Numbered from the stretch's first letter, positions 44,293 through 51,205 are shown. The stretch is DNA of 64,000 nt from Candidatus Methanoperedens sp. (GCA_027460465.1 JAPZAV010000153.1:5741-69740), one strand, 5' to 3'. Numbers and translations: made by a program. Notes: generated by a model from the sequence alone, not told the origin.

Positions 44293-45495
44293 TTGATGAG
44301 AATTATGAAAGCAATCCTGTTTGATCCATTTTCCGGCGCTTCGGGCGATATGACCATAGGATGCCTCATAGATCTTGGGGCGGACGCCGGAAAAGTCAAA
44401 AAAGCAATGGAACTGGCTGCTGATGTGGATGTCGGGATTTTTAAAACCAGCAAAAAAGGGATCTCGGCACAATCGGTCAATGTGACGGTAAGAAAAGAAG
44501 GAAGCCTTGCATTTCCAGAGATCATAGAAAGAATCAGCTCGCTGAGCCTGAATTCAGAGATCGTATCTGATGCTCTTTCAGTCTTCAACATCCTTGGCAA
44601 AGCAGAGGCAAAAGTTCACGGAACTGCACTTGAAAAATTGCATTTCCATGAACTTGGACAGGAAGATGCGATCGCGGATATTATCGGGGCATGCACTGCT
44701 TTCCACGACCTCGGACTGAAAGATCATAGAATCTACTGCACTCCGGTATCTGTTGGCAGGGGGTTTGTTGAGTTTTCCCATGGAAAATTCCCGGTTCCAG
44801 CGCCCGCAGCGCTTGAGATACTGAAAGAATACTCCCTGCCATGGAAATCAGGACCTGTGGAAGGAGAGCTGCTCACACCCACAGGAGCCGCGCTGCTTGC
44901 ATATTTCGTGAACGAAAAAGGTGAATGCGCCCAGATGAAGGCAGAGCGTGTGGGCTATGGAGCAGGAAGCAGAGACAGTGCTGTACCCAATGTCCTGAGG
45001 ATCATCTCTGGAGAGATCGATGATGCGCTTATCTCTGATAGAATCGAGGTGCTTGAGACCAATGTGGACGACGTCACAGGTCAGGTGCTGGGCAACCTCA
45101 TCGAGGTGATGCTGAAAGAAGGCGCGCTCGATGCTGCAGTGATACCTGCGACCATGAAAAAAGGGCGAAGCGGTCATCTGATCCAGGTGATCACGAAAAT
45201 CCAGGACTCAGGAAGGCTTGTCAGAAAAATAATCGAAGAAACAGGCTCTCTCGGCGTCAGGATAATACCGATAAAGCACCGGCTGATCGCTCAAAGAGAG
45301 ATCCTCGATGTGAAGCTCACGATAAACAGCAGGGAATTCCCTGTCTGCATCAAGATCGCCAGGGATCTGAATGGAGTTCTTCTGAATATCTCTCCTGAAT
45401 TTGAAGATTGCAAGAAAACTGCGCTTTCAGCCGGTATTCCTGTGAGGGATGTCATTCGACTGGCTGAGGAAGAGGCGAGGAAGAGCTTTTCCTGA
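44293..45495 (+). CDS. larC: Nickel-pincer cofactor nickel-insertion protein LarC family
   Basis: FDPFSGASGDM, HFHELG..DAIADI, PVPAPA, ELLTPTGAA, LETNVDD, MKKGR, PEFEDC. Confidence 0.92.
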   Translation: MMRIMKAILFDPFSGASGDMTIGCLIDLGADAGKVKKAMELAADVDVGIFKTSKKGISAQSVNVTVRKEGSLAFPEIIERISSLSLNSEIVSDALSVFNILGKAEAKVHGTALEKLHFHELGQEDAIADIIGACTAFHDLGLKDHRIYCTPVSVGRGFVEFSHGKFPVPAPAALEILKEYSLPWKSGPVEGELLTPTGAALLAYFVNEKGECAQMKAERVGYGAGSRDSAVPNVLRIISGEIDDALISDRIEVLETNVDDVTGQVLGNLIEVMLKEGALDAAVIPATMKKGRSGHLIQVITKIQDSGRLVRKIIEETGSLGVRIIPIKHRLIAQREILDVKLTINSREFPVCIKIARDLNGVLLNISPEFEDCKKTALSAGIPVRDVIRLAEEEARKSFS

Positions 45496-46255
45496 GCGCA
45501 CGCTTGATATCCATCCTGTAGGTCCAGTCATGCCTGAGGTACCCTGGCAAAAGCTGATTTGCCATGCTTGCTTCAGGCTCTGTCAGCAAACCTTCCAGTG
45601 ACTGTATTCCGAGCGCTTCTTCAAAACCCTGCCTCAGCATTGTTTTCACTGCTTTTATATCTGTAATCCCGATCTCTTTAAGAGTTATCATCCCTTCTCT
45701 TGCTGAGGCAACTGGCCTCAAGTTTTTCGTGGGGTTTTTAAGTATTTTATCCATCAGTTCAAAATCGAAATCCATCAGCAGGCTGCCATTGATCAGCACT
45801 GCACCGTTGAGACGACCCTGCGCATTTCCGGAAATTTTCCTCCCTTTTGAATAAACCGCATTTCGAGCAGGTTCAAGTTCTCCTTCTGCACCAAGCTCAA
45901 AGAGCGCATCCACCACCCCGCCAAGCACCTTTCTGTATGCATCCTGAATATCGCGGGGTATTGCTCCTTCTTCTCTTCCTATGACCGAGTAAAGTATCTG
46001 GTTCCTATCACAGAAGCCGCATCCACCTCCCAGTATTCTTCGCACTATGCCGATGTTGTTATGTCTGCAGTAGTCTGTATGGATCTCATCCTCGACGCAT
46101 TGATGATAACCCAGATATACCACTGGCGAGCGGACTCGCCAGAAAAGGATGGTCTCAGGAGCCATACCCGAACCCACATGCTTTGCAATGGATTCAAAAA
46201 CTGCTGCACTGTAATAGCCGTCTATCTTATCAAGGTCAAGGAAACGCCATGTCAT
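45452..46255 (-). CDS. Lipoate--protein ligase A family protein
   Basis: VYLGYHQ, VRRILGGG, RKISGNAQ, LINGSLL; start set at ATG 46255. Confidence 0.85.
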   Translation of the reverse strand: MTWRFLDLDKIDGYYSAAVFESIAKHVGSGMAPETILFWRVRSPVVYLGYHQCVEDEIHTDYCRHNNIGIVRRILGGGCGFCDRNQILYSVIGREEGAIPRDIQDAYRKVLGGVVDALFELGAEGELEPARNAVYSKGRKISGNAQGRLNGAVLINGSLLMDFDFELMDKILKNPTKNLRPVASAREGMITLKEIGITDIKAVKTMLRQGFEEALGIQSLEGLLTEPEASMANQLLPGYLRHDWTYRMDIKRALRKSSSSPLPQPVE

Positions 46256-46295: not shown

Positions 46296-47459
46296 TCAAT
46301 ACCCAAGATCTTTTTCTTTGATATTTGAAAATACAGCAAATACAATCGCGGAAACTCCCAGCGCAATTAATGTACCCCTGATCGACCAGTCCATCATCGC
46401 GCCGACTGCGATATTCAACAAAGCGGTCAAAATGCGCCCCATCATTAAGATGGTGGAGAGTATCATGGCACGATTGGCTGCAGGAATATGAATGTTAAAA
46501 TACGAAGAATACAGTGGCGCTCTGATCTCCCAGAAGCCAATTATTAAAAAGATCAAAAATATTGTGATAGCTAAATTTATGGTAAATGCGCTTGCGATGA
46601 AAGCAATTCCTGGAATTAATAATGTCATTCGGATCAAGTTTTTCTTTCCGAAAATCTTTTCAAGATGTAAAAGCTGCGCCAGAAGAATTATTGAGAAAAT
46701 ATTCATTCCTGCCGAAACCCATCCATAGATTCCTATGTCTGCATTAGAATTCTTAAGCATAATCTGATACAGCCATGTTATATAAAAAAGCAGCGAACTT
46801 CCAAGGATTGAATCAATTATCAGTGGGCGCAGCTTTTTATGTTCTCTGATGAACATCAAGCTTTCTTTAATTATAAAAATATAATGCTCTCTTTTTTCAA
46901 TTTTGTTCGAAGGTTCCTTTAAGGTGATTGCGATAAATCCTGCAAGAATTGAAGGAATCACAGAAAAAAGCATGGGATAATTTATTCCGAAGTTTACCGC
47001 CATAATGCTTCCGATGGGCGATGCAATCACGAACGCAAGCATGGGCATGGCGGAATATTTTGCAAAAACACTTTTTGAGCGGGAAGTAATGTTAGCCGTC
47101 TTGAGGGTGTCATAGATCATGGCTTCATCAGCCCCTGAAATAAAAGCTGTGCCAAGCGCCCATAAAAAATCAGCTAAAAGAAAAGCATAGATATTTGGAA
47201 TGCTGCCGAAAATCAGAGCTGCAAAAGCGGTTATGAAACAACTTAAGATGATCGATGTTTTCCGCCCGAATCTGTCAGCAAATAAGCCAGTAGGCACTTC
47301 AAATGCAAAAATCCAGAATAGAAACCAGGATTGCAGAAGAAGAGTCTCACTGAAACTGAGCCCGCCCCATCCAGTGAAAAAAGGAATAATAACGGCTTCA
47401 AAAAATTGCAGATTAAAAAGAAAGCTAATAATATTCATTTTTTGTATATTTGCAAACAT
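46296..47459 (-). CDS. MFS transporter (probable exporter)
   Basis: EVPTGLFADRFGRK motif A, SGADEAMIYD, about 12 TM helices. Confidence 0.92.
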   Translation of the reverse strand: MFANIQKMNIISFLFNLQFFEAVIIPFFTGWGGLSFSETLLLQSWFLFWIFAFEVPTGLFADRFGRKTSIILSCFITAFAALIFGSIPNIYAFLLADFLWALGTAFISGADEAMIYDTLKTANITSRSKSVFAKYSAMPMLAFVIASPIGSIMAVNFGINYPMLFSVIPSILAGFIAITLKEPSNKIEKREHYIFIIKESLMFIREHKKLRPLIIDSILGSSLLFYITWLYQIMLKNSNADIGIYGWVSAGMNIFSIILLAQLLHLEKIFGKKNLIRMTLLIPGIAFIASAFTINLAITIFLIFLIIGFWEIRAPLYSSYFNIHIPAANRAMILSTILMMGRILTALLNIAVGAMMDWSIRGTLIALGVSAIVFAVFSNIKEKDLGY

Positions 47460-47495
47460 CTGTAATACCTTTAAGATCTAAAAATTCGAGATCGT

Positions 47496-49013
47496 TTATG
47501 TTTCTTTAATTTTTTTCTGAACATCTCTGGTGATATCAAAGAGCAAATCGTCCAGGCATTCTTTACCAATGTTTTGATATGCTCTTCTCACTCCTATTCT
47601 TCTGAACCCGGCTCTTTCCAGTGACTTTATTGCAAAGATGTTTTCAATAGTTGCAGATGCAAAAAGAGAGTTCAATCCAAGCGTAGTAAAGCTGTAATCT
47701 ACCAATCCTCTGAATATACTATTCCCCATGCCCTTGCCTCTAAACTCGATTTCGCCTATGAGGCATGAAACTTCACCCGTGCACTTCTTGATATGATATA
47801 TTGAAGCAAAACCTATTGCCACGTTCTGGAAATAGACCAGAAAATCCTCGTCTTCAGAAGTCAATATAGCTATCCTGAGTTCTTCCTCTCCGCTCGAAGT
47901 AGAGGGCTCCATATACTTCGTAGCTTTATCATCACTGAACCACCTGGCAAGTAGAGGAGCATCCTCGGCTTTGATCCGTCTAAATAAGAGATTTTCAAAA
48001 TTGAAGCTGATATTTTTATTCTGGTCTTCCGGATGCACCGCATTTTCGAAGGCTGAATTCAAAATCATCTGAACGATCTGCGAGTAACTCAAGCCTGCCG
48101 CGCCTGCTGATCGCACGAAACCACTCCCATCTGGATTTATACATGGATTGGGATTAACTTCAAGCACAAAGACTTCATTTTCCCGTATTCGCAGATCCAC
48201 TCTTGCATATTCCCTTACTCCAAGGGCTTTGCAAGCATCAAGAGCCAGCATTTCTATCCTTTTAATGAGCGAAGGTTCCAGTTCTGCAGGGCATTTAGGT
48301 ATGGTGTTCTGGTAATAGAAACTATCTTTCTTCCATTTTGCCTCAAATGTTACTATTTTAGGCATATCATCAGGAAGAGTAAAGACGATCTCGGAAAGAG
48401 GAAGAACCTGAGTGCCTGGTCCAATCCGAAGGATAGAAGCATTTATTTCCCTGCCATCGATGTACTCTTCTATCAGGACTGGTTGATGGTAGGTTTCAAT
48501 AATATTCAGCACATTTTTCCTGAATTCATCTTGATTCATTGCTACCGAATTAGCAGTTATACCAGCGCTTGCATCCTCTAAACATGGTTTTACTATCACA
48601 GGAAAATCAAGGTCTAAAGATTGATCAACGCTTTTGATTATCTGAAAACGAGGGGTTGATATTCCTTCTTTCTCAAGAAGGATTTTGGTAAGATACTTAT
48701 TCCTGCTTATCTCAAGAACATCAGGAGGCGAACCTGTGTAAGGTAATCCAGTCAGCTCAAGTAAACCTGCGACATAGGGTTCAGCTTTAAGATTATTCCC
48801 GAAACCTTCAGCGAGATTGAACACAGCATCGCATTTGAGGAGAGCAGATAATACGTCAGTGGAGCATCGCAATGGAATAGCCTCATATCCAGGACCTTCC
48901 AGTGCTTTCTTCACCGCTTTAACTGTTTCAAGAACCTCCAATTCTGCCAGATTTTCTATTTCAGTTAAACCTGATTGCTCCGTTGGCAGGTTATAAAGCA
49001 CTGCCACTTTCAT
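47496..49013 (-). CDS. Ddl-like ATP-grasp ligase fused to a C-terminal RimJ/RimL/SpeG-type GNAT
   Basis: FNLAEG, PYTGS, FPVIVKP..EDASAGI, EEYIDGRE, ARVDLR, LEVNPNP; C-terminal GEIEFRGKGMG and N..AIKSLERAGF. Confidence 0.88.
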   Translation of the reverse strand: MKVAVLYNLPTEQSGLTEIENLAELEVLETVKAVKKALEGPGYEAIPLRCSTDVLSALLKCDAVFNLAEGFGNNLKAEPYVAGLLELTGLPYTGSPPDVLEISRNKYLTKILLEKEGISTPRFQIIKSVDQSLDLDFPVIVKPCLEDASAGITANSVAMNQDEFRKNVLNIIETYHQPVLIEEYIDGREINASILRIGPGTQVLPLSEIVFTLPDDMPKIVTFEAKWKKDSFYYQNTIPKCPAELEPSLIKRIEMLALDACKALGVREYARVDLRIRENEVFVLEVNPNPCINPDGSGFVRSAGAAGLSYSQIVQMILNSAFENAVHPEDQNKNISFNFENLLFRRIKAEDAPLLARWFSDDKATKYMEPSTSSGEEELRIAILTSEDEDFLVYFQNVAIGFASIYHIKKCTGEVSCLIGEIEFRGKGMGNSIFRGLVDYSFTTLGLNSLFASATIENIFAIKSLERAGFRRIGVRRAYQNIGKECLDDLLFDITRDVQKKIKET

Positions 49014-50044
49014 AATCTCATTCCTGCCCGTTTTAGTGCTGCCATGAAAATTTCTCCTATCATCTCTTCGTATGTATAGCCGGCTGTGTAAGCAGCTTTC
49101 GGAAATCTTGAGTTTTCCTTCGGGTCTGGAATCAATCCAGGTAAAGCATTGACATCAAGGACACTGGGATTCCCTTCATCATCCAGTCTCATATCTATCC
49201 TGCAGAAATCCCTGATCTCAAGGACTTCAAAAGTTCTCTGCGCTGTCCTTTCAATTTGCTGCTGTAACTCATTACTTATTTGCGCAGGGCAGAATGTTGT
49301 ATCATAATCATTTCTTGCTGAATCATATACCCACTTGACGTCATAGCAGTCAAACTTTGGCACACCAGCTGGCAGTGAATCAAAGCAAATTTCCACAATG
49401 GGAAGAACCCTGGGAGGATTTCCAAGCATTGCAACGGTGAATTCTCTGCCAGAGAGAAATTGCTCTATCAGCACTGGCTGGCGATAATGTTCTATTATCT
49501 CTGCTGCAGCACTCCGAAGTTCATCTTCGTTCTTTACAACAGACTTCGCTGTAATTCCTTTGCTTGAGCCCTCGCAATTAGGTTTCAAGAATAGGGTGGA
49601 TTCAAAGCCGATGTTCAGCTTTTCATCTGCTTTCTTAAGAAGTTGAAATCGCGGGGTACGGATCCCATTTGAGCAAAGTACCTCCTTCGTCCTTCGTTTA
49701 TCAAGGGTTATTGACATGGTTGTAACCCCTGATCCTGAATAAGGTATGCCAAGCATCTCGAGCATCGCGGGTATATGAGCTTCTCTGGATTCTCCTTTTA
49801 TCCCTTCCGCTATGTTAAAAACAAAATCGGGCTTTTCGTTCTTTATTTTTCCATAAGCAGCCTCGTCCCCTTCGATCACAATAACTTCCCTGCAATAGTT
49901 GAGAAGTGCCATTTTTATCGCTTCAACCGTAGCAGAAGAGTCAAACTCAGCGAATACATCCGTATTCTCATGTGAATAGTTCTCAGGCTGAAGGTTACAG
50001 GTTATCGCCACCTTCAGATCATATTTTCGGGTTTGAATACTCAT
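49010..50044 (-). CDS. Ddl-like ATP-grasp ligase
   Basis: FNIAEG, PYSGSG, LKPNCEGSSKGI, EQFLSGREFTV, CRIDMR, DVNALPG. Confidence 0.9.
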   Translation of the reverse strand: MSIQTRKYDLKVAITCNLQPENYSHENTDVFAEFDSSATVEAIKMALLNYCREVIVIEGDEAAYGKIKNEKPDFVFNIAEGIKGESREAHIPAMLEMLGIPYSGSGVTTMSITLDKRRTKEVLCSNGIRTPRFQLLKKADEKLNIGFESTLFLKPNCEGSSKGITAKSVVKNEDELRSAAAEIIEHYRQPVLIEQFLSGREFTVAMLGNPPRVLPIVEICFDSLPAGVPKFDCYDVKWVYDSARNDYDTTFCPAQISNELQQQIERTAQRTFEVLEIRDFCRIDMRLDDEGNPSVLDVNALPGLIPDPKENSRFPKAAYTAGYTYEEMIGEIFMAALKRAGMRL

Positions 50045-51041
50045 ATATTTCTCCTTTATAATTGGAGATTACCGCTTTTTCTTCATCCAGGCAAATGATG
50101 TACTCGGGCGGAATTATTGGTACCTTGCCACCTCCAGGTGAATCTATGATCAAGTGTGGGACACACAGGCCTGAAGTAAACCCTTGAAGGCTCCTGAATA
50201 TCTCGAAACCTTTCTGTATACTGGTCCTGAAATGTTCCACCCCCTTCACTGGATCGCAAAAGTAGAGATAATAAGGGCGAACTCTGTTTTTTACCAGCTT
50301 TTGCATAAGTTCTTTCATTACTTCACAGTTATCGTTTACCCCATGCAGAAGAACGGTCTGGCTTCCAAGAGGAATTCCACCGTTTGCAAGAAGCATAAGT
50401 GCACGTTCACTTGATGGATTTATCTCGCTGGGATGCTCGAAATGTAAGTTGATGTACAGCGGGTGATATTTTTTGAGTATGTTCACCAGTTCGGGAGTAA
50501 TTCTCTCAGGAACGACAGAAGGTATGCGAGTGCCTATGCGGATAATCTCGACATGAGTTATAGACCGAAGCTCTCTCAGTATAATATCTATTTCGCTGTT
50601 TGTCCTCATAAGAGGGTCACCACCGCTGATGAGTACATCACGGATTTCCTGATGCTCCCTTATATAATCAGTTCCTATGAAAATCTGTTTCATAGGTATC
50701 TGTCTTTCCCTGCCCACCTTTCGCTTCCTCGTGCAGAAACGGCAGTAAATCGGGCATGTCGAGCTTATCATAATAACAGCCCTGTCCGGATAGCGATGGA
50801 CAAGACCTGCAACCTTTGTATCTCTTTCTTCTTTTAGCGGGTCTGGTGCGTTATGGACATCGCATAGCTCCTCAATGCTGGGGATGCACTGCTTCCAGAT
50901 AGGGTCATCCTTCTCCTTTATAAGTCTTAAAAAATGTTCACTAATCTTCATGGGATAAATCCGCTGGACTTGCTGTATTTCCTCCATGTCAGCGCCCATA
51001 CGTTCTAAGAAATCCAACAAATTCTCTTCGTTTTGAAACAT
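50019..51041 (-). CDS. kamA: KamA-family radical SAM enzyme (lysine 2,3-aminomutase-like, compact)
   Basis: HRYPDR, CPIYCRFCTRKR, SGGDPL, IRIGTR, QTVLLHGVND, RPYYLYFCD, DSPGGGK. Confidence 0.88.
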   Translation of the reverse strand: MFQNEENLLDFLERMGADMEEIQQVQRIYPMKISEHFLRLIKEKDDPIWKQCIPSIEELCDVHNAPDPLKEERDTKVAGLVHRYPDRAVIMISSTCPIYCRFCTRKRKVGRERQIPMKQIFIGTDYIREHQEIRDVLISGGDPLMRTNSEIDIILRELRSITHVEIIRIGTRIPSVVPERITPELVNILKKYHPLYINLHFEHPSEINPSSERALMLLANGGIPLGSQTVLLHGVNDNCEVMKELMQKLVKNRVRPYYLYFCDPVKGVEHFRTSIQKGFEIFRSLQGFTSGLCVPHLIIDSPGGGKVPIIPPEYIICLDEEKAVISNYKGEIYEYSNPKI

Positions 51042-51104
51042 ACGCCTTTACCACCGAAACTGTATAGTTTCTATCGAAAACTCTGATGAGTAAGTTGTTA
51101 AATT

Positions 51105-51150
51105 CTTTATATATTTACCATCAAGTCCACCTGTTTTCAATAGTTTTCAA
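51105..51150 (-). promoter_or_regulatory. Putative promoter of the kamA cluster: TATA box plus tandem TTGAAAAC repeats
   Basis: AAATATATAAAG about 65 nt upstream of kamA ATG; TTGAAAAC at 51133-51140 and 51143-51150. Confidence 0.45.
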
Positions 51151-51205
51151 CATGGTCAAGTTACATTACTATAAAAGTCTTACGATTTCATAATATTAAT
51201 AATAA

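What the first reader, a model, noticed from the sequence alone, without database searches (positions are those of the whole stretch)
46296..51041. Candidate biosynthetic cluster: lysine aminomutase + two ATP-grasp ligases (one GNAT-fused) + MFS exporter
Seen: four same-strand genes with tight coupling (kamA overlaps ligase 1 by 26 nt, ligase 1/ligase 2 share an ATGA overlap, 36 nt gap to the MFS gene), in visibly more AT-rich DNA than the flanking trpA and lipoate-ligase genes, with their own TATA box. Established: KamA enzymes make beta-amino acids; ATP-grasp enzymes form amide bonds without ribosomes or NRPS; Methanosarcinales have no peptidoglycan, so D-Ala-D-Ala synthesis is not a sensible role; ligase + MFS + acetyltransferase is the layout of small-peptide antimetabolite clusters (tabtoxin, dapdiamide, rhizocticin types); pyrrolysine synthesis (PylB + PylC) is a precedent for a radical-SAM lysine mutase paired with an ATP-grasp ligase in this order. 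The known methanogen osmolyte operon ablAB has a stand-alone acetyltransferase and no ligases or exporter. Inference: an uncharacterised pathway producing and exporting a beta-lysine-containing di/tripeptide, possibly N-acetylated (antimicrobial, signal, chelator or new compatible solute). I know of no characterised product for this layout, but could not search.
Basis: partly seen in the sequence, partly recalled or inferred. Interest (0 to 1): 0.85.

Follow-up and report, generated by a model that had tools for sequence, protein, structure and literature searches.

The report
Beta-lysine twin-ligase cassette with exporter
Four adjacent genes in a probable Methanoperedens genome are one copy of a widespread gene cassette with no known product; it most likely turns lysine into beta-lysine, joins it to other building blocks through two ATP-driven bonds and acetylates the result, and only this lineage adds its own membrane transporter.

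Summary
Four minus-strand genes sit exactly as described: a KamA-type aminomutase, a Ddl-like ATP-grasp ligase, a second Ddl-like ligase fused to a GNAT, and an MFS transporter.

KamA + ligase 1 + ligase 2 + GNAT is a conserved module. It recurs in about 60 fetched loci from archaea and bacteria, in four gene orders, with KamA-ligase 1 and ligase 2-GNAT fusions. The ligase family has 1,105 representatives at E<=1e-30.

Cassette KamAs keep the lysine-binding and PLP residues of lysine 2,3-aminomutase. They form a clade apart from the AblA of the window's own genus. Both ligases keep the catalytic residues of D-Ala-D-Ala ligase but replace its specificity residues. The GNAT is not AblB.

The MFS gene is shared only with the closest relative, so export is a lineage-specific addition. 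The cassette is AT-richer than its flanks but ordinary for the genome.

No described pathway or product turned up. The best reading is an N-acetylated beta-lysine di- or tripeptide-like amide, probably a solute, released through the MFS.

It is a new archaeal instance of an orphan cassette this scan has flagged many times.

The parts
50019..51041 (-). Compact KamA-family radical-SAM/PLP 2,3-aminomutase (340 aa), predicted lysine 2,3-aminomutase that makes beta-lysine
   Evidence: Radical_SAM + LAM_C. It passes only the KamA subfamily model TIGR00238 and falls below the AblA, Glu and Arg aminomutase equivalog cut-offs. It scores 352 bits against PDB 2A5H, with R134, D293, D330 and K337 equivalents conserved (R105, D263, D300, K306). 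In the tree it sits inside the cassette-linked clade, apart from the AblA of congeners.
49010..50044 (-). Ligase 1: Ddl-like ATP-grasp amide ligase (344 aa)
   Evidence: Dala_Dala_lig_C. Best NCBIfam match is Ddl at 191 bits, below the 243-bit cut-off. The closest solved structures are true Ddl enzymes, best E 5e-28. K97, K144, E180, E187, K215, R255, D257 and N272 equivalents are conserved; H63 is E, Y216 is W and L282 is R. The family has 1,105 representatives at E<=1e-30.
48039..49013 (-). Ligase 2: second, anciently diverged Ddl-like ATP-grasp domain (residues about 1-325 of the 505-aa fusion)
   Evidence: Dala_Dala_lig_C. It is 36% identical to ligase 1. Family signatures differ from both Ddl and ligase 1: W216 51/51, G282 51/51, N274 51/51, A/G150.
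47532..47996 (-). GNAT N-acetyltransferase domain fused to ligase 2 (residues about 340-494)
   Evidence: Acetyltransf_3/8/1. The RGxGxG acetyl-CoA motif is conserved in 20 orthologues. It is not AblB: no TIGR03827 hit, and the nearest matches are weak ones to PseH, RimI, AAC(6') and SpeG. The GNAT is a separate gene in some archaea (L039) and in 40 bacterial-type loci.
46296..47459 (-). MFS transporter (387 aa), a lineage-specific addition to the cassette
   Evidence: MFS_1, with weak similarity to drug-efflux MFS. An 83%-identical gene sits in the same position after ligase 2-GNAT in L141, which has a different upstream neighbour. It is absent from all other cassette loci examined.
51042..51205 (-). 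Upstream intergenic region with a TATA-like box (51106-51116) and an SD-like GGTGGT (51050-51055)
   Evidence: Read directly. It holds no small ORF of note, no Rfam match and no unusually stable fold.
47460..47495 (-). 36-nt spacer between ligase 2-GNAT and MFS, with a T5 tract (47480-47484) and an AGGT motif before the ATG
   Evidence: Read directly. Whether it terminates or attenuates transcription is untested.

Best explanation
This is a self-contained biosynthetic cassette for a small, N-acetylated amide or peptide containing beta-lysine. Step 1: the compact KamA enzyme converts L-lysine to beta-lysine. The substrate is inferred from conserved binding residues; the activity is not shown. 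Steps 2 and 3: two old, non-redundant paralogues of D-Ala-D-Ala ligase each form one amide bond through an ATP-derived acyl phosphate. That would make a di- or tripeptide-like product, with beta-lysine serving as acyl donor, as amine acceptor, or as both. The catalytic machinery is conserved; the partner substrates are unknown. Step 4: the GNAT domain fused to ligase 2 acetylates a remaining free amine. In this Methanoperedens lineage an MFS transporter was added to release or export the product. The most likely physiological role is a cytoplasmic compatible or nitrogen-rich solute. That would parallel N-epsilon-acetyl-beta-lysine (AblA/AblB) and the dipeptide solute NAGGN, which is made by a GNAT/ATP-grasp fusion. 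A secreted role is a minority option. The genus does not share the cassette, so it was gained by transfer or lost by differential loss.
For: Anatomy and tight coupling.

Co-conservation: the same KamA-ligase 1-ligase 2(-GNAT) unit occurs in Methanothrix, Methanocellales-type and other assemblies with unrelated flanks. KamA and a ligase lie together in 60 of 99 ligase-bearing loci, in four gene orders.

Fusions: KamA-ligase 1 fusions occur in L030, L039, L061 and L062, and ligase 2-GNAT fusions also occur. A stand-alone GNAT is present in 40 loci.

KamA: 61 of 62 aligned KamAs (9 of them canonical AblAs of relatives) keep D293 and D330; R134 is kept in all 60 that cover it and K337 in all 62.

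Ligases: all ATP, Mg and catalytic residues are kept, but H63, Y216, L282 and (in ligase 2) S150 are replaced by family-specific residues. Ligases 1 and 2 each carry their own invariant signature.

GNAT: the acetyl-CoA motif is conserved.

Acetyl turnover: GNAT-deacetylase (HDAC-type) fusions follow the ligases in several bacterial loci, which fits an N-acetyl amine product.

MFS: it travels with the unit in a second genome that has a different upstream neighbour.

Same genus: the canonical kamA-ablB operon makes N-epsilon-acetyl-beta-lysine under salt and includes a release channel (PMC11337218). The window's genome and all eight other cassette-bearing archaeal genomes tested lack AblB.
Against: There is no biochemical, metabolite or expression evidence for any step. 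The partner substrates, the number and order of the bonds and the acetylation site are all inferred. The MFS gene is not conserved beyond one close relative. A T5 tract lies before it. Its best family matches are weak ones to drug-efflux transporters, so it could be an unrelated neighbour. Methanoperedens lives in fresh water, so the need for a solute is not obvious. The absence of AblB from cassette genomes rests on 9 genomes and I ran no significance test. Some loci have the ligase pair with GNATs but no adjacent KamA (L001), so beta-lysine may not be the only amine used by the wider family.
Confidence: 0.55

Rival explanations
1. [quoted passage not shown] KamA and the GNAT domain would replace AblA and AblB. 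The ligases would have a side role, for example converting part of the pool into a storage dipeptide.
For: A Methanothrix_A study called a core KamA (E about 1e-120 to AblA) 'ablA' and found only very weak, non-adjacent 'ablB' hits. Granules dominated by that organism released acetyl-beta-lysine (PMC9128505). The cassette-bearing Methanothrix-type genomes G338 and G279 have no AblB, and nor does the window's genome.
Against: The two ligases are as strictly conserved as KamA and are fused to KamA and to the GNAT. That is hard to explain if they were dispensable. The GNAT is not of the AblB family, and bacterial cassettes use yet another GNAT subfamily. The granules were mixed communities. That the published 'ablA' is the cassette KamA is my inference.
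Confidence: 0.12
2. The two ligases work repeatedly and build an oligo- or poly-beta-lysine-type polycation or nitrogen store, capped by acetylation. This would resemble cyanophycin or the beta-lysine chains of streptothricins.
For: ATP-grasp enzymes can work repeatedly (RimK and the cyanophycin synthetase ATP-grasp domain, own knowledge). Beta-lysine has both a carboxylate and two amines. The acetylase/deacetylase pairs in bacterial versions would suit control of a polycation. The invariant Glu that replaces DdlB H63 in both ligases could bind a second ammonium group (inference).
Against: The ligases belong to the Ddl branch, which as far as I know makes single bonds between small substrates. 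No primer, hydrolase or granule-associated gene is conserved nearby.
Confidence: 0.12
3. The ligases act on a protein or carrier rather than on free metabolites. Beta-lysine or a peptide would be built on the acidic C-terminal tail of a small LysW-like zinc-ribbon protein, as in amino-group-carrier-protein pathways.
For: A LysW-like 56-58-aa zinc-ribbon gene with an acidic tail ending ...DWEDY or ...EWGDY lies directly upstream of KamA in two diverged loci of the window's nearest clade, L023 and L142. One passes the Pfam Zn_ribbon_LysW cut-off.
Against: There is no such gene in the window's upstream gap or anywhere in its genome, nor in any other of more than 140 loci. Known carrier ligases (LysX, ArgX) are RimK-type, not Ddl-type (own knowledge). 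The small protein had no relatives in the large protein search.
Confidence: 0.06
4. The ligases are ordinary D-alanine-D-alanine ligases, or the four genes are unrelated neighbours.
For: The best family and structure matches are Ddl enzymes.
Against: Both score below every Ddl cut-off (191 and 139 bits against 243). The D-Ala specificity residues are replaced. Methanosarcinales-type archaea have no murein (own knowledge). Co-conservation and fusions with KamA and GNAT rule out chance adjacency.
Confidence: 0.02

Closest known systems
[quoted passage not shown] Methanoperedens
   Same: It starts with a KamA-family lysine 2,3-aminomutase and includes a GNAT. It occurs in the same genus, where the operon also carries a membrane release protein, the MscS-like YnaI (PMC11337218).
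   Different: The KamA here is compact (340 aa against about 440) and falls below the AblA cut-off, in a separate clade. The GNAT is not AblB. Two conserved ATP-grasp ligases are added, which the AblAB pathway does not need.
Ngg, the GNAT/ATP-grasp bifunctional enzyme that makes the dipeptide osmolyte N-acetylglutaminylglutamine amide (Sinorhizobium, Pseudomonas; recalled from Sagot et al. 2010, not re-read here)
   Same: An acetyltransferase domain is fused to an ATP-grasp peptide ligase, producing an N-acetylated small peptide without ribosomes or NRPS.
   Different: As I recall, the Ngg domain order is reversed and its ATP-grasp is not Ddl-type. It uses glutamine, not beta-lysine. It has no aminomutase and no second ligase. 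Homology was not tested here.
D-alanine-D-alanine ligase (E. coli DdlB, PDB 2DLN/1IOV) and the Van ligases
   Same: Same fold and same ATP, Mg and catalytic residues. The Glu15 equivalent, which binds the amino group of substrate 1, is kept.
   Different: Scores fall below the family cut-offs. H63 is E, Y216 is W, L282 is R or G, and S150 is A in ligase 2. The host has no murein. The genes are always linked to KamA and a GNAT.
PylB/PylC of pyrrolysine synthesis
   Same: The logic matches: a radical-SAM enzyme rearranges lysine into a non-protein diamino acid, and an ATP-grasp ligase then joins it through an amide bond. It is found in Methanosarcinales (own knowledge).
   Different: PylB is not a KamA-family, PLP-dependent aminomutase (own knowledge). 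PylC is not among the 25 best NCBIfam matches of either ligase, which are almost all Ddl or Van models. There is no PylD here.
LysW/LysX amino-group carrier protein systems
   Same: A LysW-like zinc-ribbon protein with an acidic tail sits next to an ATP-grasp ligase in two sister loci.
   Different: It is absent from this window and this genome. The tail ends in DY rather than the canonical EDWGE (own knowledge). The ligases are Ddl-type, not RimK-type.

Membership tests
Lysine 2,3-aminomutase (KamA/AblA, EC 5.4.3.2) | CxxxCxxC radical-SAM cluster motif and a PLP-binding lysine (K337 of 2A5H) | tested here: met
   CPIYCRFC aligns with the cluster motif of 2A5H, and K306 aligns with K337.
Lysine 2,3-aminomutase (KamA/AblA, EC 5.4.3.2) | Lysine-binding residues R134, D293 and D330 | tested here: met
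   R105, D263 and D300 are conserved. D293 and D330 are kept in 61 of 62 aligned KamAs, and R134 in all 60 that cover it.
Lysine 2,3-aminomutase (KamA/AblA, EC 5.4.3.2) | Score above the AblA equivalog cut-off (TIGR03820, 525 bits) | tested here: not met
   422 bits. Only the KamA subfamily model TIGR00238 is passed (276 against 199). The protein lacks about 26 N-terminal and about 48 C-terminal residues of 2A5H.
Lysine 2,3-aminomutase (KamA/AblA, EC 5.4.3.2) | Conversion of L-lysine to beta-lysine | not testable with these tools
   Needs an anaerobic enzyme assay.
AblB beta-lysine N6-acetyltransferase (TIGR03827) | Match to the AblB model | tested here: not met
   The GNAT domain does not hit TIGR03827. 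The family is absent from the whole genome, while congeners have it next to AblA.
D-alanine-D-alanine ligase (EC 6.3.2.4) | Score above the Ddl family cut-offs | tested here: not met
   Ligase 1 scores 191 bits and ligase 2 scores 139 bits against the 243-bit cut-off of NF002378. Both are below TIGR01205 too.
D-alanine-D-alanine ligase (EC 6.3.2.4) | ATP-grasp catalytic residues (K97, K144, E180, E187, K215, R255, D257, E270, N272 of DdlB) | tested here: met
   All are conserved in both ligases, with E270 as D in ligase 1.
D-alanine-D-alanine ligase (EC 6.3.2.4) | Substrate-pocket residues H63, S150, Y216 and L282 | tested here: not met
   H63 is E in both. Y216 is W in both. L282 is R in ligase 1 and G in ligase 2. 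S150 is A in ligase 2.
Conserved orphan cassette KamA + two Ddl-like ligases + GNAT (unnamed; product unknown) | All four domains adjacent on one strand, with ligase 1 upstream of ligase 2 | tested here: met
   The same layout occurs in L023-L039, L061, L141 and L142.
Conserved orphan cassette KamA + two Ddl-like ligases + GNAT (unnamed; product unknown) | KamA falls in the cassette-linked clade, not with canonical AblA | tested here: met
   The tree places the window with L141 (100/100), then L023, L142 and L024, inside a 27-row clade (100/99). The AblAs of the same genus group with 2A5H on the other side.
GNAT acetyltransferase | Acetyl-CoA-binding motif R/Q-x-x-G-x-G/A | tested here: met
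   RGKGMG. G426 and G428 are invariant in 20 orthologues. Acetyltransf_3 scores 57.5 bits against a 25.4-bit cut-off.
Small-peptide antimetabolite clusters (tabtoxin, dapdiamide, rhizocticin type) | Homology of the ligases to the L-amino-acid ligases of those clusters, plus a conserved exporter | tested here: not met
   The only L-amino-acid ligase structure hit (BL00235, 3VOT) is marginal, E 1e-5 and 6e-5. The MFS gene is conserved only in one close relative.

The most novel reading that the evidence does not exclude
The KamA + twin Ddl-like ligase + GNAT cassette would make a so far unrecognised class of beta-lysine-based pseudopeptides, built without ribosomes or NRPS. The ligase family has more than 1,100 representatives at 50% identity, in both Archaea and Bacteria. 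In most carriers the product would be an abundant intracellular solute or polycation. In this Methanoperedens lineage it would have been turned into an exported compound by capture of a dedicated MFS transporter. In a sister lineage it would be assembled with the help of a LysW-like carrier protein.
Probability: 0.3. Interest if true: 0.8.

Novelty: new variant of a known kind. Interest (0 to 1): 0.6.

Why it matters
Beta-lysine chemistry in archaea is currently explained by one two-gene pathway, AblA/AblB to acetyl-beta-lysine. This cassette shows that a second, more elaborate beta-lysine pathway is widespread in anaerobic archaea and bacteria and has no known product. Published genome surveys already appear to count its KamA as 'ablA' (Methanothrix_A, PMC9128505). 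If so, osmolyte potential is being inferred from the wrong gene set. Finding the product would add a new metabolite to methane-cycling archaea. It would also assign a function to a large branch of 'D-Ala-D-Ala ligase' annotations in organisms that have no murein. The three- or four-gene unit is small enough to express directly.

Tried and rejected
2. Empty-site test: in six congeners nothing downstream of trpA matched lplA, larC or the cassette within about 10 kb. Synteny is not conserved there, so an insertion could not be shown.
3. Composition as a sign of transfer: rejected. The cassette is at the 12th percentile of genome windows.
4. Literature: six searches that combined aminomutase or KamA with ATP-grasp, GNAT, LysW or Ddl found no paper describing the cassette (one search failed on syntax).
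5. LysW-like carrier: not in the window, its genome or other loci. The large protein search returned only the query.
6. Riboswitch or leader RNA: no credible Rfam hit (one chance-level match, E 0.81) and no unusually stable fold upstream.
7. The first genome-contig scan with a single sequence gave only two distant bacterial loci. The alignment-based metagenome scan was far more useful.
8. Structure prediction and fold search were not run. Sequence matches to solved structures were all true Ddl enzymes, and model coordinates cannot be inspected with these tools.
9. AblB absence: 0 of 9 cassette genomes have AblB, against 9 of the 40 other relatives searched. The sample is small and no significance test was run.
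Full report
**Observation**

- KamA-like, 50019-51041, 340 aa
- ligase 1, 49010-50044, 344 aa
- ligase 2-GNAT, 47496-49013, 505 aa
- MFS, 46296-47459, 387 aa

KamA and ligase 1 overlap by 26 nt. Ligase 1 and ligase 2 overlap by 4 nt (ATGA). A 36-nt gap precedes the MFS gene.

Pfam gives Radical_SAM+LAM_C, Dala_Dala_lig_C, Dala_Dala_lig_C+Acetyltransf_3 and MFS_1. The flanks are trpC/B/A upstream and a lipoate-protein ligase plus a LarC-type protein downstream.

A TATA-like AAATATATAAA (51106-51116) and an SD-like GGTGGT precede KamA. The spacer before the MFS gene contains a T5 tract.

The cassette has 41.4% GC against 48-51% in the flanks. The genome averages 44.7%, and the cassette lies at the 12th percentile of equal-sized windows. 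It is AT-richer than its neighbours but not anomalous.

**Host**

A protein in the same 90% cluster as the window's TrpB is named Candidatus Methanoperedens sp.. The genome is 2.87 Mb in 176 contigs.

**KamA**

It passes only the general KamA subfamily model. It is below the equivalog cut-offs for lysine (AblA), glutamate and arginine 2,3-aminomutases.

Against the solved Clostridium enzyme (2A5H) it scores 352 bits. It keeps the cluster cysteines, R134, the two aspartates that hold the lysine epsilon-ammonium (D293, D330) and the PLP lysine K337. It lacks about 26 N-terminal and about 48 C-terminal residues.

In 62 aligned KamAs (53 next to a ligase, 9 canonical AblAs of relatives), D293 and D330 are kept in 61, R134 in all 60 that cover it and K337 in all 62. 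The exception is an Aminicenantes gene with K and T at the two Asp positions. Lysine as the substrate is therefore well supported by sequence, though not shown.

**Ligases**

Both are closest to D-Ala-D-Ala ligases but fall below every Ddl cut-off (191 and 139 bits against 243). The nearest solved structures are all true Ddl enzymes.

I aligned 44 ligase 1 and 51 ligase 2 sequences from cassette loci with E. coli DdlB. The result:
- All ATP, Mg and catalytic residues are kept, so both are probably active.
- DdlB H63 is an almost invariant Glu in both families.
- Y216 is Trp (51 of 51 in ligase 2).
- L282 is Gly in all ligase 2 sequences and variable (D, C or R) in ligase 1.
- S150 is Ala or Gly in ligase 2.
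- Each paralogue has its own invariant signature, and the two are only 36% identical.

They are old, non-redundant partners, which suggests two different bond-forming steps.

**GNAT**

It has the acetyl-CoA motif. It is not AblB: it gives only weak hits to PseH, RimI, AAC(6') and SpeG-type enzymes.

**Co-conservation**

- None of the 24 same-genus genomes searched has the ligase 2-GNAT gene, and the window's genome has no other KamA.
- Some congeners instead carry the canonical 437-444-aa AblA, in some of them with AblB next to it. That operon has been shown to make N-epsilon-acetyl-beta-lysine under salt in Methanoperedens (PMC11337218).
- The same KamA-ligase 1-ligase 2-GNAT unit occurs with unrelated flanks in Methanothrix-type, Methanocellales-type and other assemblies. 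Eight of about 400 genomes sampled across the phylum have it.
- An alignment-seeded metagenome scan returned 80 more loci. Across all loci, KamA and a ligase lie together in 60 of 99.
- Four gene orders occur: K-L1-L2(-GNAT); L1-L2-GNAT-K; K-L1-L2; and L1...K-L2 with a sigma-54 two-component system in between.
- KamA-ligase 1 fusions occur in four loci. A stand-alone 162-aa GNAT occurs in 40 loci.
- GNAT-deacetylase fusions follow the ligases in several bacterial loci.
- The ligase family has 1,105 representatives (clusters at 50% identity) at E<=1e-30. Many are tandem or KamA-fused.
- In a KamA tree the window groups with L141 (100/100), then with L023, L142 and the Methanothrix locus, inside a well-supported cassette clade. 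The AblAs of its own genus group with 2A5H on the other side.

**MFS**

Only L141, the closest relative (KamA 87% identical), has the transporter. It sits in the same position, is 83% identical, and has a different upstream gene, a class III aminotransferase instead of trpA. The four-gene unit therefore moved or persisted as a block in this sublineage. Export is not a property of the cassette at large.

**Literature**

No paper in the library describes the cassette. A Methanothrix_A study lists a core 'ablA' (E about 1e-120) but only very weak, non-adjacent 'ablB' hits, and none in strain 6Ac. The cassette-bearing Methanothrix-type genomes here lack AblB. I therefore infer that the published 'ablA' is the cassette KamA.

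Earlier notes of this scan describe the same cassette in many other genomes, always with the product unknown. They agree with this reading but are not independent evidence.

**Interpretation**

The best-supported mechanism has five steps:
1. Lysine is converted to beta-lysine.
2. Ligase 1 forms one amide bond through an ATP-derived acyl phosphate.
3. Ligase 2 forms a second amide bond in the same way.
4. The GNAT acetylates a remaining amine.
5. In this lineage the MFS releases the product.

A solute role is favoured for three reasons. It parallels AblAB and the NAGGN enzyme Ngg (recalled from memory). The cassette occurs where AblB is absent (0 of 9 genomes). The Methanothrix loci sit beside a K+ channel and an amino-acid permease. 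All of this is circumstantial.

The rivals are plain acetyl-beta-lysine synthesis, an oligo-beta-lysine polymer, and carrier-protein-linked assembly. The last is suggested by a LysW-like gene in two sister loci only. Ordinary Ddl function is rejected.

**Not done**

An empty-site comparison failed for lack of synteny. No riboswitch or leader RNA was found.

Noticed in passing
L023:5722-5892 and L142:294-470: A LysW-like zinc-ribbon gene (56-58 aa, CPWC...CSGC, acidic tail ending DWEDY or EWGDY) lies 31-76 nt upstream of KamA in two diverged loci of the window's nearest cassette clade. One passes the Pfam Zn_ribbon_LysW cut-off. It is absent from the window, its genome and all other loci.
   Followed up: partly
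L041:388-2346 (G239) and about 25 similar loci L042-L060: Methanosarcinaceae-type and other genomes of the phylum carry a protein of about 650 aa that joins an N-terminal SAM methyltransferase domain (Methyltransf_25/11) to a C-terminal Ddl-like ATP-grasp. The ATP-grasp part is 33-39% identical to the cassette ligases. There is no KamA nearby.
   Followed up: no
G014:C35:12426-13046, G338:C1:1875271-1876305 and others: A second KamA-family protein of about 600-630 aa, 29-36% identical to the window's KamA, is widespread in the order and in Methanothrix-type genomes. In some Methanoperedens genomes it lies about 3 kb from AblA. Its extra domain was not examined.
   Followed up: no
L092:10499-11785, L001:10172-11770: A GNAT fused to a histone-deacetylase-type (acetylpolyamine amidohydrolase-like) domain follows the ligase pair in several bacterial loci. 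In L001 (Planctomycetaceae) a further GNAT follows it and no KamA is adjacent.
   Followed up: partly
L002:9090-10370 (Candidatus Aminicenans): A KamA next to a single Ddl-like ligase has K and T in place of the two lysine-binding aspartates. This recalls the Lys/Asn pair of glutamate 2,3-aminomutase and suggests a different amino-acid substrate.
   Followed up: no
L069, L072, L076, L077, L086, L098: In one bacterial layout ligase 1 is separated from KamA-ligase 2 by about 3.6 kb that encodes a histidine kinase and a sigma-54-dependent response regulator. The cassette may have a dedicated two-component control there.
   Followed up: no
L024-L027:3061-5354: In the Methanothrix-type loci an amino-acid permease and a K+-channel-type gene lie immediately upstream of the cassette, which is a weak hint at osmoregulation.
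   Followed up: no
window 44293-45495 (+) and 45452-46255 (-): The LarC-type nickel-insertion gene and the lipoate-protein ligase gene converge and overlap by about 44 nt at their 3' ends. The ligase start lies about 40 nt after the MFS stop with no obvious terminator between them.
   Followed up: no
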